A stretch of 64,000 nucleotides of DNA. Source: Kiritimatiellia bacterium (GTDB lineage: Bacteria > Verrucomicrobiota > Kiritimatiellia > RFP12 > UBA1067). The translations under genes were made by a program, and so were the position numbers. The stretch is taken from NCBI GenBank assembly GCA_050949565.1, contig JBMNFY010000008.1, forward strand, positions 128,001 through 192,000. Reading direction: 5' to 3'. This document shows, one piece after another, positions 12,926-38,328 of the stretch (positions within the stretch are counted from its first letter, which is position 1; every line of letters starts with the position of its first letter). Below the pieces are notes generated by a model, which saw nothing but the letters and a program-made list of their open reading frames with translations, was not told where the DNA came from and did not search any database.

Positions 12926-13660
12926 TTACGGATCATCAATTGCTACACCTTTTTCAACCAACACCTTGAGCAACGCCGCCGCAGCGGCCTTTTCCGCAGC
13001 GCGTTTCGTCTTGCCTTCGCCAAATGCCTGATGACCGCCGTGTACGCGCGCAGCCACGCGATACTCGGGCGCATGCTGCGGCCCCGATGTCTGCACCAAT
13101 TCATACGTGGGCGAGTCCGGCCAAGCATAGTGTTGCGCGACCTCTTGCAACTTGCCTTTTGGGTTATCCCTTTCAGTGTCGATCGGAATATCCTCGCAAC
13201 CGGCCATGACGGTCTCGAAGACCGCTCCGGCGGCCGACAGCCCACCGTCGCACCATGCGGCACCGAACAGCGCCTCCATCGCGTCCGCCAGCGTATTGTC
13301 ATTCTCGCGCCCGCCCGCCGCCGCGTCACCGCGTCCCAGCCGCAACCAATCACCCACGCCGAGCCGACGCGCCATGTCTGCCAGCGCACGCCCGCTCGCC
13401 AGCAGGCTGCGACGAACGGTCAACATGCCCTCGTCCGCATCCGCATACCGCGCGAAAAGCCACTGCGCACACAAGAGCCCAAAGACCGCGTCGCCCAAAA
13501 ACTCCAGCCGCTGATTATCGCGGACTTCAGGCCCGGGGTGATCCGTACGGTAAGACGGCGCCGTCACCGCTGTTTGCAGCCACACCCGATCCTTGAACGC
13601 ATATCCCAGTTTCTGTTCCAACGCGTCCAAAGACGGCTCCACTTCATCCAAAAACGCCAC
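12926..13660 (-). CDS. rnc: Ribonuclease III
   Basis: NQRLEFLGDAV signature, LADAMEALFGA, C-terminal dsRBD (NPKGKLQE...GKTKRAAEKAAA). Confidence 0.95.
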   Translation of the reverse strand: MAFLDEVEPSLDALEQKLGYAFKDRVWLQTAVTAPSYRTDHPGPEVRDNQRLEFLGDAVFGLLCAQWLFARYADADEGMLTVRRSLLASGRALADMARRLGVGDWLRLGRGDAAAGGRENDNTLADAMEALFGAAWCDGGLSAAGAVFETVMAGCEDIPIDTERDNPKGKLQEVAQHYAWPDSPTYELVQTSGPQHAPEYRVAARVHGGHQAFGEGKTKRAAEKAAAAALLKVLVEKGVAIDDP

Positions 13661-13735
13661 ATCGACTCCTCAATACAAAGCACTTGTCCATGGCACGTTA
13701 TTGTGCCCAAAACGGCCGGTCAGTACAAGGCAATC

Positions 13736-13777
13736 CCTTATTGCGACCGCCCAGTGGTCGCAATGATGAGTGTAAAA
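13736..13777. repeat. Palindromic repeat ATTGCGACC-RCCCAGT-GGTCGCAAT plus conserved tail
   Basis: 42-bp unit also at 38287-38328 with 2 mismatches; a third, inverted variant is interrupted by the IS at 13821-13836 / 15294-15306. Confidence 0.88.
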
Positions 13778-13934
13778 ACGGGCGGGGCGCGGCTACGTGG
13801 TACAAGGTTTTAACCTCGTCTTTGTGACCACTGGGTCGCGGTCCGTCAAATAGAAAAGACACCGTAGGTTTTTTTGAGGCGGTGACGATCCGTCAAATAC
13901 TGGACACCGAGGGGGTCAAGGGACGAGGGGCTGG

Positions 13935-15194
13935 TCAACGGCGTGAAGGGTGGCCGAGTTCCGCGCCCTGTCCCGCCGGTATTCCGGCGGGACAGGGCGC
14001 GGAACCCGGGGTGGTCATCCCTTGCGCTTCGCGTTTGGCGAGCTTGTTCTGCTTGCGCAGGATCAGCGCGTATCGGCGGCGGATGTCCTCAAGGAGGCGG
14101 ATCGGATTGGTCTTTTCGCGGAGCGCGGTAAGACGCCGGATCACGGCGGGGTCCGCGTATCCCGACGCAATCACCCTGTCGAGGGGCGTGGCGGGCTTGT
14201 CGTAACGCTTGGAGAAGCCGTGCGAGTCCGGCCTTTTGGTTTTGGAGATGAGCCGCTTGCAGGGGCGGAAGAGGTTGTTGTACAGCGATATCTTCGCGCA
14301 CAGGACGTCCATGTCCTTCTTGAGCTCGATGCGGTCGATGCGCTCGTAGCCGAAATACTCGCGGACGACGGAGGCGTTCTTCTGCTCCACGCGGGCGTTG
14401 TCGTTCTTGTTCCCGGGGCGGGAACGGGTGAAGGCGAGGGGGCGGGGGCGGTCCCGCGCGTAGCCGAGCACGTGGGCGTTGAGGAACTCCAGCCCGCTGT
14501 CCGAGTGCATGGCCGTGAGCGGGAACGGGAACGCGGCCTCGGCGTCGGCGAGGCCTTCCTTGGTCGCGGCCGCGCCGCGGTTCCAGACGCAGCGCAGCTC
14601 CGTCCACTGCGTCAGGCGGTCCGTGAGCGTGAGGATCCAGAAGAAGTTGCCGCTCATGTCGCCCCCGCAGAGCGCGACCGTGTCGACCTGCGTGTCGCCG
14701 GGGGCGGCGGGCGGCAGCGCCTCGCCCGGGACGCAGGGGACGCTCGACGCCAGCGCGTTCGCCCCGCTGCGGCGGTTGCGGCGGCGCGGGGCCTCGCGCG
14801 GGTGCTTGCGGAGGATGCGCTCCATCGTCGACGCGCTCATGCGCAGAACCTGCGCCGCGGCCGCCTCGTCGACATGCTCGAGCTCGCGCAGCGCGGCCAT
14901 CTGGCGGTCCGCCACGGTCACAAGGTACTGGGGCGTCATGCGTCCCGAGGCGCGCCAGAGACGCAGGAACAGGGCTTCCGCCCCGGGCGTGTACGTCTTC
15001 CCGCGCCCGGCGTGATCGCGGTACTTCCGGTTGCCGGTCAGCAGCCGGATGGCGTATTTGCGCTCGGCCCCCGTGACCTGGCAGAAGTCGTCGATCGCGG
15101 CACTCTTGGCCTTCTTGCTCTTCAGTTTTGAATAGGCGCGACGCTTCGCGCCGACGTATTCCATCGTGGCTTTCCGTGACATCTCGTTTCTCAT
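13935..15194 (-). CDS. DDE transposase with integrase (rve) core
   Basis: N-terminal KSAAIDDFCQVTGAERKYAIRLL helix-turn-helix; catalytic QVD, HSDSGLEFLN, NDNARVEQKN; start could be 15194 or 15182. Confidence 0.92.
   Translation of the reverse strand: MRNEMSRKATMEYVGAKRRAYSKLKSKKAKSAAIDDFCQVTGAERKYAIRLLTGNRKYRDHAGRGKTYTPGAEALFLRLWRASGRMTPQYLVTVADRQMAALRELEHVDEAAAAQVLRMSASTMERILRKHPREAPRRRNRRSGANALASSVPCVPGEALPPAAPGDTQVDTVALCGGDMSGNFFWILTLTDRLTQWTELRCVWNRGAAATKEGLADAEAAFPFPLTAMHSDSGLEFLNAHVLGYARDRPRPLAFTRSRPGNKNDNARVEQKNASVVREYFGYERIDRIELKKDMDVLCAKISLYNNLFRPCKRLISKTKRPDSHGFSKRYDKPATPLDRVIASGYADPAVIRRLTALREKTNPIRLLEDIRRRYALILRKQNKLAKREAQGMTTPGSAPCPAGIPAGQGAELGHPSRR
13958..14005. other. Perfect 22-bp hairpin inside the 3' end of the transposase gene
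   Basis: GTTCCGCGCCCTGTCCCGCCGG-TATT-CCGGCGGGACAGGGCGCGGAAC. Confidence 0.9.
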
Positions 15195-15319
15195 GCGAGC
15201 CGATTCTAGCACGGTGTCCAGTATTTGACGGATGCGCTTGATTTCCGGACACCGCGATTTTGGCTACGGTGTCCATGACTATGACATACCGCGGGGTGGT
15301 CACAAAAACACATCGAAGC

Positions 15320-15348
15320 TTGACGATACCCCCTGAATCCGAGACAAT
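15320..15348 (+). promoter_or_regulatory. Putative sigma70 promoter of the tetR-rlmN-recD2 operon
   Basis: TTGACG-17 bp-GACAAT about 40 bp upstream of the ATG. Confidence 0.55.
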
Positions 15349-15389
15349 GAAACTTTGCACTTAAGGACTCTTTTCGGGAGCAGAAGCAG

Positions 15390-16022
15390 ATGGGTATCGT
15401 CATCGACCATGAGGCGCGCAAGCGCGTCATCATCGAAAAATCAGTCAAACTCTTTGCGGAGCAAGGGTATGACGGCGTCACCTATCAAAAAATCGCGGAC
15501 CGCTGCGCCATCGCCCGTACGACCCTCTACAAGTATTTCCGGAACAAGCGCGAAATCTTTAACACGGCAATCTGGGAAGTCTCCCACCTGCTGGTCGACC
15601 GCTTCGACGAGATCCTCTCCTCCAAAACCAGCGCACTCGCCCGGCTCGAACGCATCATGGTAGCTGTGGTCCAACTCCTGTTTGAGCAACGTGTCATGTT
15701 GACGGTCATCCTTGATTACATGTTGGCATCGCAACGTGCCGGACATGACTTGTCGCGAAACATCCGCAGCCACACCATCGGCCTACGACGCATCATGCAC
15801 AGCCTGATCACTGAAGGTGTCCGTCGCGGCGAACTACGCAAGCTCAGCCCCGGCCTCACGACCAACTTGGTGTACGCCCAACTGGAGGCGACCGTCCTAC
15901 GATTGACCGTCAGCCAGAATGCCGATTATGATCGGATTATCTCAATGTTCCAACAGACCATCGAAGCCCTTAAGGCACCGGGCGCGCATAACGCGAAAAG
16001 CAACCGCAGTAAAGTATCATGA
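15390..16022 (+). CDS. TetR/AcrR family transcriptional regulator
   Basis: LFAEQGYDGVTYQKIADRCAIARTTLYKYFRNKREI helix-turn-helix. Confidence 0.92.
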   Translation: MGIVIDHEARKRVIIEKSVKLFAEQGYDGVTYQKIADRCAIARTTLYKYFRNKREIFNTAIWEVSHLLVDRFDEILSSKTSALARLERIMVAVVQLLFEQRVMLTVILDYMLASQRAGHDLSRNIRSHTIGLRRIMHSLITEGVRRGELRKLSPGLTTNLVYAQLEATVLRLTVSQNADYDRIISMFQQTIEALKAPGAHNAKSNRSKVS

Positions 16023-38286: not shown

Positions 38287-38328
38287 CCTTATTGCGACCA
38301 CCCAGTGGTCGCAATGTTGAGTGTAAAA
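38287..38328. repeat. Palindromic repeat ATTGCGACCAC-CCA-GTGGTCGCAAT plus tail (intact member of the IS-target family)
   Basis: Matches 13736-13777. Confidence 0.88.

What the first reader, a model, noticed from the sequence alone, without database searches (positions are those of the whole stretch)
13821..15306. DDE insertion sequence inserted at the apex of a dispersed palindromic repeat, suggesting hairpin-targeted transposition
Seen: removing 13837-15293 and one GGGT copy restores a perfect hairpin, TTTGTGACCAC-TGG-GTGGTCACAAA. Intact relatives occur at 38291-38315 (reverse complement TTGCGACCAC-TGG-GTGGTCGCAA) and 13740-13764; the two substitutions relative to the restored site are compensatory. 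Established: REP targeting is known for IS1397 (IS3 family) and IS621/ISPpu10 (IS110 family). Inference: this rve-type, ISLbi1-like transposase targets a repeat family or cruciform as a safe harbour, which I am not aware of being described for this group. The split hairpin arms also mimic TGT...ACA ends and would mislead automated end-calling.
Basis: partly seen in the sequence, partly recalled or inferred. Interest (0 to 1): 0.8.

Follow-up and report, generated by a model that had tools for sequence, protein, structure and literature searches.

The report
Ordinary insertion sequence splitting a REP hairpin
A 1.46-kb jumping gene has landed in the loop of a small palindromic repeat, but its eight sister copies in the same genome mostly sit in ordinary non-palindromic DNA, so this looks like an occasional hit and not a hairpin-homing mechanism.

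Summary
Window 13837-15293 is a 1457-bp insertion sequence (IS) with a 4-bp duplication (GGGT, 13833-13836 and 15294-15297). It splits a perfect 11-bp-stem, 3-nt-loop hairpin. Nine full copies in the genome share the ends CGCGG...CCGCG and have different flanks, so the hairpin arms belong to the target, not to the element. The transposase is a distant ISLbi1/ISNCY relative (29% identity, E 3e-43).

The hairpin belongs to a REP-like family of 71 further loci, and RAYT-like genes are present.

Hairpin targeting is not the rule:
- 1 of 9 copies lies in this repeat family.
- 2 of 9 lie at the apex of any strong palindrome; 7 of 9 do not.
- In relatives with a duplication, 0 of 4 (G027) and 0 of 1 (L007) sites are at a hairpin. 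One site (L059) touches a 7-bp-stem hairpin.
- 2 of 9 exceeds a uniform null (P about 0.004 to 0.05, criteria chosen post hoc).

Dispersed repeats fill 38-55% of non-ORF DNA, so landing in repeats is expected. No empty site was found. Verdict: an ordinary, recently active IS, with at most a weak structural bias.

The parts
13837..15293 (-). Insertion sequence, 1457 bp, ISLbi1/ISNCY-like; strand given for its transposase gene
   Evidence: Boundaries come from 9 full copies at 96.6-100% identity with unrelated flanks. Copies differ from this one by 2-10 substitutions.
13935..15212 (-). Transposase ORF, 425 aa from the GTG start (an ATG lies at 15194); DDE candidates D177, D238, E276
   Evidence: ORF list. 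Pfam rve E 1.4e-3, below cut-off. NCBIfam IS481 25 bits, below cut-off. 29% identity to the ISLbi1 transposase over 354 aa, E 3e-43, with QVD/QID, HSD/LSD and VEQKN/IEQKN aligned. Weak match to foamy-virus integrase cores.
13833..13836 (.). Left copy of the target-site duplication GGGT
   Evidence: 4-bp (once 5-bp) duplications flank 6 of 9 copies.
15294..15297 (.). Right copy of the target-site duplication GGGT
13806..13836 (+). Left half of the split REP-like repeat, type B: conserved 17-nt leader, 5' arm, loop
   Evidence: The same 37 nt recur at 89-97% at many intact loci.
15294..15308 (+). Right half of the split type-B repeat: 3' arm and A-run
   Evidence: inverted pair I4.
13742..13762 (-). 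Type-A REP-like core with one arm mismatch; partner of the split type-B unit in an A(-)...B(+) doublet
   Evidence: 12 neighbouring pairs of cores less than 300 nt apart lie elsewhere in the genome, most of them A(-)...B(+).
13837..13867 (+). Left terminal inverted repeat (CGCGGT..GTCA, 8-9 nt, GACACCGTAG)
   Evidence: Read. Constant in all copies. The CGCGGT..GTCA end is shared by the 43%-identity relatives in G027.
15264..15293 (-). Right terminal inverted repeat (imperfect; spacer 1 nt shorter than on the left)
13888..13909 (+). Subterminal repeat, left; a second copy of the end motif and a likely second transposase-binding site (inferred)
   Evidence: Perfect 22-nt inverted pair I2 and direct repeat D4.
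15212..15233 (-). Subterminal repeat, right
   Evidence: Pair I2.
13954..14009 (.). Internal hairpin with 26-nt arms, inside the 3' end of the transposase ORF; role unknown
   Evidence: Pair I1, 96% complementary. Only sub-threshold miRNA-model hits in Rfam. One arm is deleted in the C7 copy.
38293..38313 (-). Intact type-A REP-like core in the same window
   Evidence: Exact match.
12926..13660 (-). RNase III gene, left neighbour
   Evidence: Pfam Ribonuclease_3 and dsrm.
15390..16022 (+). TetR-family regulator gene, right neighbour
   Evidence: Pfam TetR_N, 55.5 bits.

Best explanation
This is a recently active 1457-bp DDE insertion sequence of the ISLbi1 (ISNCY) lineage in a Kiritimatiellae genome. 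It carries two end-motif copies at each terminus. It makes staggered cuts 4 bp apart (sometimes 5 bp) and has little target-sequence specificity.

One of its nine copies happened to integrate in the loop of a REP-like hairpin between the RNase III and tetR genes, duplicating GGGT. Copies survive mainly in intergenic DNA, which in this genome is largely dispersed repeats. Finding copies in repeats, sometimes palindromic ones, therefore follows from where insertions are tolerated and does not require hairpin recognition.

Shown: the boundaries, the duplication, the repeat family, and the spread of the other sites. Inferred: the cut geometry, binding at the end motifs, and the filter by selection.
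For: - Ends are constant and flanks vary in 9 of 9 copies.
- Duplications: GGGT, TCTTG, CCCC, ATAT, GATT, GATT, with no shared motif; 3 of 9 copies have none.
- Relatives give TGAG, TCAC, TAGG, ATGAT (G027), GTAGG (L007) and GGAG (L059).
- Only 1 of 9 copies is in the REP-like family. 7 of 9 reconstructed sites have no hairpin with a stem of 7 bp or more around the duplication.
- G027 gives 0 of 4 and L007 0 of 1 at hairpins.
- No REP half was seen, by eye, next to the IS ends of the 22 metagenome or MAG loci printed.
- Most sites are intergenic: no stop-to-stop frame of 80 codons or more crosses the junction in c1 and c2, and only 84-92-codon frames cross in c7, c8 and c9.
- 38% of non-ORF bases have 5 or more other copies in the genome, and 55% have at least one. 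Five of nine copies in or beside repeats is therefore expected.
- Tobes and Pareja found 107 of 981 mobile elements (11%) touching REPs. They treated ratios above 45% as association (passages of PMC1525189). This element scores 1 of 9.
- ISLbi1 itself inserted into three coding regions (passage of PMC2229662).
Against: - Two of nine copies sit within about 2 nt of the axis of strong palindromes that are unrelated in sequence (11-bp stem with 3-nt loop; 14-bp stem with 15-nt loop).
- Apex positions make up 0.24% of the genome and 1.0% of my non-ORF set. That gives P(2 or more of 9) of 2e-4 and 3.6e-3. With stems of 7 bp or more the values are 0.013 and 0.049.
- My ORF mask is over-inclusive: only 24 of 71 REP cores fall outside it. 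A conservative bound is therefore P of about 0.02-0.05.
- A metagenomic relative (L059) is at the loop/stem junction of a 7-bp-stem hairpin.
- Copies c7 and c8 lie in the 5' arms of 5-bp and 7-bp stems.
- These criteria were set after seeing the data, and n is small.
Confidence: 0.7

Rival explanations
1. The transposase has a real but partial structural bias. Like other integrase-fold enzymes that favour distorted or bendable target DNA, it inserts more readily at extruded hairpins or cruciform tips, whatever their sequence, while still using ordinary DNA most of the time.
For: Two of nine copies lie at the apexes of two unrelated palindromes, within about 2 nt of the axis. P is 0.004 under a non-ORF uniform null and 0.02-0.05 under a conservative bound. 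L059 is at a 7-bp-stem hairpin.
Against: 7 of 9 copies here, 0 of 4 in G027 and 0 of 1 in L007 are not at hairpins. The test criteria were chosen post hoc. Palindromic repeats are over-represented in exactly the DNA where insertions are tolerated. There is no experimental evidence and no empty site.
Confidence: 0.22
2. The element is a dedicated REP-targeting IS, in the manner of IS1397 or IS621, that recognises the TGYGACCAC-TGG-GTGGTCRCA unit.
For: One copy sits in that unit, close to its axis, with the repeat otherwise intact.
Against: Only 1 of 9 copies is in the family, although 71 other units are available. None of the metagenome or MAG flanks printed shows a REP half. The 1 of 9 ratio is far below the 45% threshold and the 4/4 to 10/10 ratios of accepted REP-targeters (passages of PMC1525189).
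Confidence: 0.03
3. The palindrome arms are the true inverted ends of a longer element (TGT...ACA) and the repeat elsewhere is a solo end or MITE of that element.
For: The arms form a 14-nt inverted pair, 93% complementary, around the element (I4).
Against: None of the other 8 copies carries these arms; similarity stops at CGCGG/CCGCG. The arms occur joined, as a 25-nt hairpin, at 71 loci without the element.
Confidence: 0.01

Closest known systems
ISLbi1 of Leptospira biflexa (ISNCY family, ISLbi1 group)
   Same: Single-ORF element of about 1.4-1.5 kb. The transposases align over 354 aa at 29% identity (E 3e-43) with the three acidic residues in register. Both carry short motifs repeated near each end (for ISLbi1, here). 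ISLbi1 shows no hairpin preference in print: three insertions into coding regions (passage of PMC2229662).
   Different: Only 29% identity, and a different phylum (Kiritimatiellae; label from the 88%-identity MAG locus L031). The end sequences are unrelated. The duplication here is 4 bp, sometimes 5 bp; I recall 5 bp for the group from ISfinder, which I could not check.
REP-targeting insertion sequences: IS1397/ISKpn1/ISPsy8 (IS3), IS621/ISPpu9/ISPpu10/ISPa11 (IS110), ISRm22 (IS4)
   Same: An IS interrupts a REP-type palindrome in intergenic DNA; IS1397 also goes into the loop (recalled).
   Different: Those elements have 4/4 to 10/10 copies in REPs (Table 2 passage of PMC1525189). This one has 1 of 9. 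IS110-type elements use a DEDD recombinase guided by RNA (abstracts listed), not a DDE transposase with inverted repeats and duplications.
Incidental IS-REP contacts (for example IS1 6/101, IS2 2/37, IS4 3/11 in Shigella; 11% of 981 mobile elements overall)
   Same: A low ratio of copies touching REPs, with no evidence of specificity. The 1 of 9 here falls in this class (table passages of PMC1525189).
   Different: A different IS family and phylum. Here a second copy sits in another palindrome, which keeps a weak bias possible.
REP/RAYT systems and REPIN doublets of Proteobacteria
   Same: The target is a 21-25-nt palindrome at 71 further loci, often as inverted doublets. A Y1 (HUH) transposase-like gene is flanked by units in inverted orientation.
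   Different: The RAYT-like proteins score below the curated cut-offs (32 and 49 bits against 80). They are 313-396 aa with a shared C-terminal extension. The phylum is one where I know of no description (recalled, not searched).

Membership tests
ISNCY family, ISLbi1 group | Transposase homologous to the ISLbi1 transposase | tested here: met
   blastp against the protein annotated 'ISNCY-like element ISLbi1 family transposase' in NC_010844.1: 29% identity over 354 aa, E 3e-43. About 32% identity to 'ISNCY family transposase' genes of rhizobial plasmids.
ISNCY family, ISLbi1 group | DDE catalytic triad on an integrase-like (rve) core | tested here: inconclusive
   D177, D238 and E276 align with D/D/E of ISLbi1, and D238 and E276 align with a foamy-virus integrase core (E 0.07). 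Pfam rve scores only 19 bits against a cut-off of 32.6. No structure was predicted.
   1457 bp, one ORF, imperfect terminal repeats of about 30 bp. The duplication is 4 bp in 5 copies and 5 bp in 1 copy here. In relatives it is 4 bp in 3 sites and 5 bp in 2. The group's reference values are recalled, not checked.
REP-targeting IS (association as defined by Tobes and Pareja 2006) | More than 45% of at least 4 copies inserted in REP units | tested here: not met
   1 of 9 copies is in the REP-like family and 2 of 9 are in any strong palindrome. The threshold comes from the Table 2 passage of PMC1525189.
REP-targeting IS | Constant position and orientation of insertion within the repeat unit | not testable with these tools
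   Only one insertion lies in this repeat family.
REP/RAYT system (for the target repeat) | Short imperfect palindrome, many dispersed copies, mostly extragenic | tested here: met
   71 loci within 3 mismatches, plus the split one. Units lie in the gaps of a sugar-transferase gene cluster. My crude ORF mask places only 24 of 71 outside long open frames, because the mask is over-inclusive in this 60% G+C genome.
REP/RAYT system (for the target repeat) | A RAYT (Y1 HUH transposase) gene flanked by REPs in inverted orientation | tested here: inconclusive
   The ORF at C20:21950-22891 has a type-B unit directly upstream and a type-A unit over its 3' end, in inverted orientation. It carries HLH and Y..DN motifs. 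NF047646 scores 32 bits and, for the C9 paralogue, 49 bits, against a cut-off of 80. Pfam Y1_Tnp scores 20 bits against a cut-off of 23.

The most novel reading that the evidence does not exclude
The ISLbi1-group DDE transposase has a structure-based bias for the tips of extruded hairpins or cruciforms, independent of sequence. That would explain why two unrelated palindromes were each hit within about 2 nt of their axes. It would add an integrase-fold IS lineage and the PVC superphylum to the list of palindrome-seeking elements.
Probability: 0.2. Interest if true: 0.45.

Novelty: new member of a known kind. Interest (0 to 1): 0.2.

Why it matters
As it stands this is a routine annotation result. 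It describes a new, recently active ISLbi1-like IS in Kiritimatiellae, with defined ends and duplication, sitting once in a REP-like hairpin.

The practical value is a caution. The split arms of a target palindrome imitate TGT...ACA ends and can mislead end-calling, and a single tidy case is not evidence of targeting.

If the weak bias for hairpin tips proved real, it would be a modest extension of a known theme. REP targeting is already documented in five IS families (passage of PMC1525189). The REP/RAYT-like system of this genome may be the more useful by-product.

Tried and rejected
- Empty site in sister genomes. Searching the genus with both flanks showed that the closest genome (G004, 97% and 94% identity) has RNase III and tetR on different contigs, with no repeat upstream of tetR. 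The other four with a tetR match also lack it. No pre-insertion allele was found.
- Public runs. Contigs of 4 runs (X9, X10, X11, X13) were laid on 13300-15800. No contig joined across the element, and pieces stop at 13836/13837 and 15293/15294, as expected at a multi-copy repeat. Two contigs (records 7 and 31) run 14-15 letters beyond 15294 that were not printed, so they decide nothing. This is no evidence for or against an empty site.
- Metagenome and MAG copies. Most short contigs show no duplication. They may be chimeric across the repeat or recombinant, so they were used only as half-sites. Of the full-length loci printed, only L059 (GGAG) and perhaps L058 (GGG) show a duplication.
- Conserved-end scan in 21 more distant loci. 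Only L007 gave both ends.
- Target consensus. Aligning the duplication-bearing sites by eye gave no shared motif.
- Recombination as the cause of the three copies without duplications. Exchanging flanks among c4, c5, c6 and the fragment restored no duplication. However, contig L065 joins the left flank of c6 to the flank of the fragment at C8:244885, so rearrangement or mis-assembly occurs.
- Rfam on 13000-16000: only sub-threshold miRNA-model hits on the internal hairpin.
- Literature. 'ISLbi1' gave 3 papers, and 'ISNCY' + 'target site' + 'palindromic' gave 6 papers. By their listings and the one passage read, none reports hairpin or REP targeting for this group. Supplements were not consulted.
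- Not used: structure prediction, complex prediction, the two large protein searches, the ESM atlas.

Full report
WHAT IS THERE.
Reading 13600-15500 shows, left to right:
- the end of an RNase III gene (12926-13660, minus strand; Pfam);
- a palindromic unit at 13742-13762;
- a conserved leader and the arm TTTGTGACCAC (13821-13831), then T and GGGT (13833-13836);
- a 1457-bp element (13837-15293);
- GGGT again (15294-15297), overlapping the arm GTGGTCACAAA (15296-15306);
- a TetR-family gene (15390-16022).

THE ELEMENT AND ITS ENDS.
BLAST of 13800-15330 against the laid genome (4.66 Mb, 21 contigs) finds 9 full-length copies and one 204-bp right-end fragment. Similarity begins at CGCGG (CACGG once, TGCGG once) and ends at CCGCG in every copy. 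The flanks are unrelated to one another. The palindrome arms are therefore target DNA, not element ends.

Copies differ from the window copy by 2-10 substitutions. Six of nine keep the full 442-codon open frame, two share a 1-nt deletion, and one has a 47-bp deletion. The family has therefore expanded recently.

Each end carries an imperfect terminal inverted repeat of about 30 bp, plus a second copy of the motif about 50 bp inside. The inner copies form a perfect 22-nt inverted pair, 13888-13909 and 15212-15233. A hairpin with 26-nt arms lies in the 3' end of the transposase frame (13954-14009).

THE TRANSPOSASE.
The 425-aa ORF (13935-15212, minus strand) scores only weakly with Pfam rve (19 bits, below cut-off) and with NCBIfam IS481 (25 bits, below cut-off).
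- tblastn against plasmids gives about 32% identity to genes annotated 'ISNCY family transposase'. It also gives 28% identity to the gene annotated 'ISNCY-like element ISLbi1 family transposase' on L. biflexa p74.
- Local blastp against that protein gives 29% identity over 354 aa, E 3e-43. D177, D238 and E276 lie in conserved QVD, HSD and VEQKN blocks.
- D238 and E276 also align with foamy-virus integrase cores (E 0.07).
The label 'rve-type, ISLbi1-like' is supported as distant homology.

An 88%-identity copy lies in a MAG labelled Kiritimatiellae. In 60 relatives the best matches are 47% identity or less, and the same-genus MAGs hold only fragments. Those MAGs have 220-860 contigs, where multi-copy elements rarely assemble.

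THE TARGET REPEAT.
The pattern TGYGACCAC-TGG-GTGGTCRCA, allowing up to 3 mismatches, occurs at 71 genomic loci besides the split one.
- Two flavours exist. Type A is the C-G variant with leader TTTTACACTCATCAT and tail ATAA. Type B is the T-A variant with leader GGTTTTAACCTCGTCTT and tail AAAA.
- The covarying pair is kept in 68 of 71 loci (48 C-G, 20 T-A).
- The middle of the loop is the most variable position (TGG 39, TGA 13, TGC 5, others 14).
- Units often form A(-)...B(+) doublets 80-180 bp apart. Twelve neighbouring pairs lie less than 300 nt apart, and the window's pair is one more.
- On contig C20 the units occupy the gaps of a sugar-transferase gene cluster.
- One ORF there (C20:21950-22891, 313 aa) starts just after a type-B unit and ends in a type-A unit of opposite orientation. 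It has HLH and Y..DN motifs. It matches Y1_Tnp and the NCBIfam REP-associated tyrosine transposase model, below cut-off.
- A 396-aa paralogue on C9 scores 49 bits and is 35% identical to it over about 290 aa.
The target is thus best called a REP-like repeat with candidate RAYT genes. Matches to the repeat occur in all six same-genus genomes.

IS INSERTION HAIRPIN-TARGETED?
The nine sites were reconstructed and folded as DNA.
- c1 (the window copy): apex of the 11-bp-stem, 3-nt-loop hairpin. The duplication covers loop positions 2-3 and the first two stem bases.
- c2 (C8:270570): duplication TCTTG in the 15-nt loop of an unrelated 14-bp-stem palindrome built from TTAGGA-type repeats.
- c7 and c8: in the 5' arms of weak 5-bp and 7-bp stems.
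- c3, c4, c5, c6, c9: no relevant structure.
Duplications are GGGT, TCTTG, CCCC, ATAT, GATT and GATT, and three copies have none.

Related elements give the following.
- The four 43%-identity copies in the complete genome G027 have the same CGCGGT..GTCA ends and duplications TGAG, TCAC, TAGG and ATGAT. None is at a hairpin.
- L007 has GTAGG at a non-palindromic site.
- L059 has GGAG at the loop/stem junction of a 7-bp-stem hairpin.
- None of the metagenome or MAG flanks printed shows a half of the REP unit (by eye).

NULL EXPECTATION.
I defined apex positions as perfect stem of 9 bp or more, loop of 3-16 nt, loop plus or minus 2 nt.
- Apex positions cover 0.24% of the genome and 1.03% of DNA outside any 150-codon open frame.
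- Two of nine then gives P = 2e-4 (whole genome) and 3.6e-3 (non-ORF).
- With stems of 7 bp or more the values are 0.013 and 0.049; with stems of 11 bp or more, 2e-5 and 7e-4.
- The mask is over-inclusive: only 24 of 71 REP cores fall outside it. If all apex positions lay in 274-466 kb of intergenic DNA, P would be about 0.02-0.05.
- The criteria were chosen after the two cases were seen.

Five of nine copies lie in or beside dispersed repeats. However, 38% of non-ORF bases have five or more other copies and 55% have at least one, so that association needs no targeting.

COMPARISON WITH WHAT IS KNOWN.
Passages of Tobes and Pareja 2006 (PMC1525189) state the following.
- REP targeting extends to the IS3, IS110, IS4, IS256 and IS5 families.
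- Accepted cases have 4/4 to 10/10 copies in REPs.
- 107 of 981 mobile elements (11%) touch REPs.
- Low ratios such as IS1 6/101 are common.
The present 1 of 9 belongs with the low ratios. A passage of the L. biflexa genome paper (PMC2229662) reports three ISLbi1 insertions into coding regions. Searches for 'ISLbi1' (3 papers) and for 'ISNCY' + 'target site' + 'palindromic' (6 papers) listed nothing on hairpin targeting in this group.

EMPTY SITE.
None was found, either in sister genomes or in contigs of four public runs.

VERDICT.
The element is a new member of the ISLbi1/ISNCY lineage with defined ends and a 4-bp duplication. The hairpin is a REP-like unit.

The mechanistic inference of hairpin-targeted transposition into a safe harbour is not supported as the element's rule. 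A weak preference for hairpin tips remains possible (about 0.2) and can be tested with an unselected insertion library.

I give 0.7 to the ordinary reading: low-specificity insertion, survival in repeat-rich intergenic DNA, and one chance hit on a REP loop.

Noticed in passing
G000 genome-wide; window 13742-13762, 13806-13836 with 15294-15308, and 38293-38313; L082 (C20:18000-37500): A REP-like system in a Kiritimatiellae genome. It has 71 palindromic units in two covarying flavours, frequent A(-)...B(+) doublets, and units in the intergenic gaps of a polysaccharide gene cluster. Type-B units are often followed by a half-repeat, a Shine-Dalgarno-like AAGGAG and a start codon.
   Followed up: partly
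L082 3951-4892 (C20:21950-22891) and L083 500-1690 (C9:27999-29189): Two RAYT-like Y1 (HUH) proteins of 313 and 396 aa, 35% identical to each other. They share a C-terminal extension of about 150 aa that is absent from the 146-position NCBIfam RAYT model. Both score below the curated cut-offs. The C20 gene is bracketed by inverted REP-like units.
   Followed up: partly
G000, 68 loci; for example C7:109270 and C17:1713363 next to IS copies c9 and c5: A second abundant repeat class ends in the motif CCCCCTGTCACYAACCGATTA, with several different upstream bodies and variable DNA after it. It often lies shortly upstream of genes. IS copies c5 and c9 and metagenome locus L067 lie in it or at its edge, at three different positions. 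Its nature (MITE end, promoter module) is unknown.
   Followed up: partly
G000, 256 hits; C8:270420-272176 around IS copy c2: TTAGGATTTAGGAG-type short repeats occur in tandem runs, and in at least 7 intact convergent pairs that form long hairpins. One more such pair is the target of IS copy c2.
   Followed up: partly
window 13954-14009: A hairpin with 26-nt arms (96% complementary) lies inside the 3' end of the transposase frame. No T-run follows it on either strand. One arm is removed by a 47-bp deletion in the C7 copy (equivalent to 13947-13993), which still has an open frame.
   Followed up: partly
window 13909 joined to 15106 (run X9): One low-depth contig (5.8) skips 1196 bp of the element's interior. 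This may be an internally deleted, MITE-like derivative in the population.
   Followed up: no
IS copies c4 (C17:48360-49815), c5 (C17:1713363-1714819), c6 (C17:1948928-1950384): Three of nine copies lack a target duplication. Metagenome contig L065 joins the left flank of c6 to the flank of the right-end fragment at C8:244885-245088. This points to recombination between copies, or to chimeric assembly.
   Followed up: partly
window 13743 onward and 15294-15308, compared with L034 and L044 (G004): Synteny breaks exactly at the REP doublet. In the closest sister genome, RNase III and tetR lie on different contigs with other neighbours, and homology to the window starts only at about 15309-15310.
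   Followed up: partly
L085 (G027:C1:3237346-3241461), target of relative copy c: The target of one distant relative shares the 11-mer CACTGGGTGGT with the window's REP apex. Its duplication (TCAC) lies 5 nt to the left of the corresponding GGGT, so the match gives no consistent recognition register and may be chance.
   Followed up: no
C7:110720 onward, right of IS copy c9: Another multi-copy element (13 loci, 99-100% identical over about 127 nt) starts about 21-24 bp from the end of IS copy c9. Other IS families in this genome were not examined for REP association.
   Followed up: no
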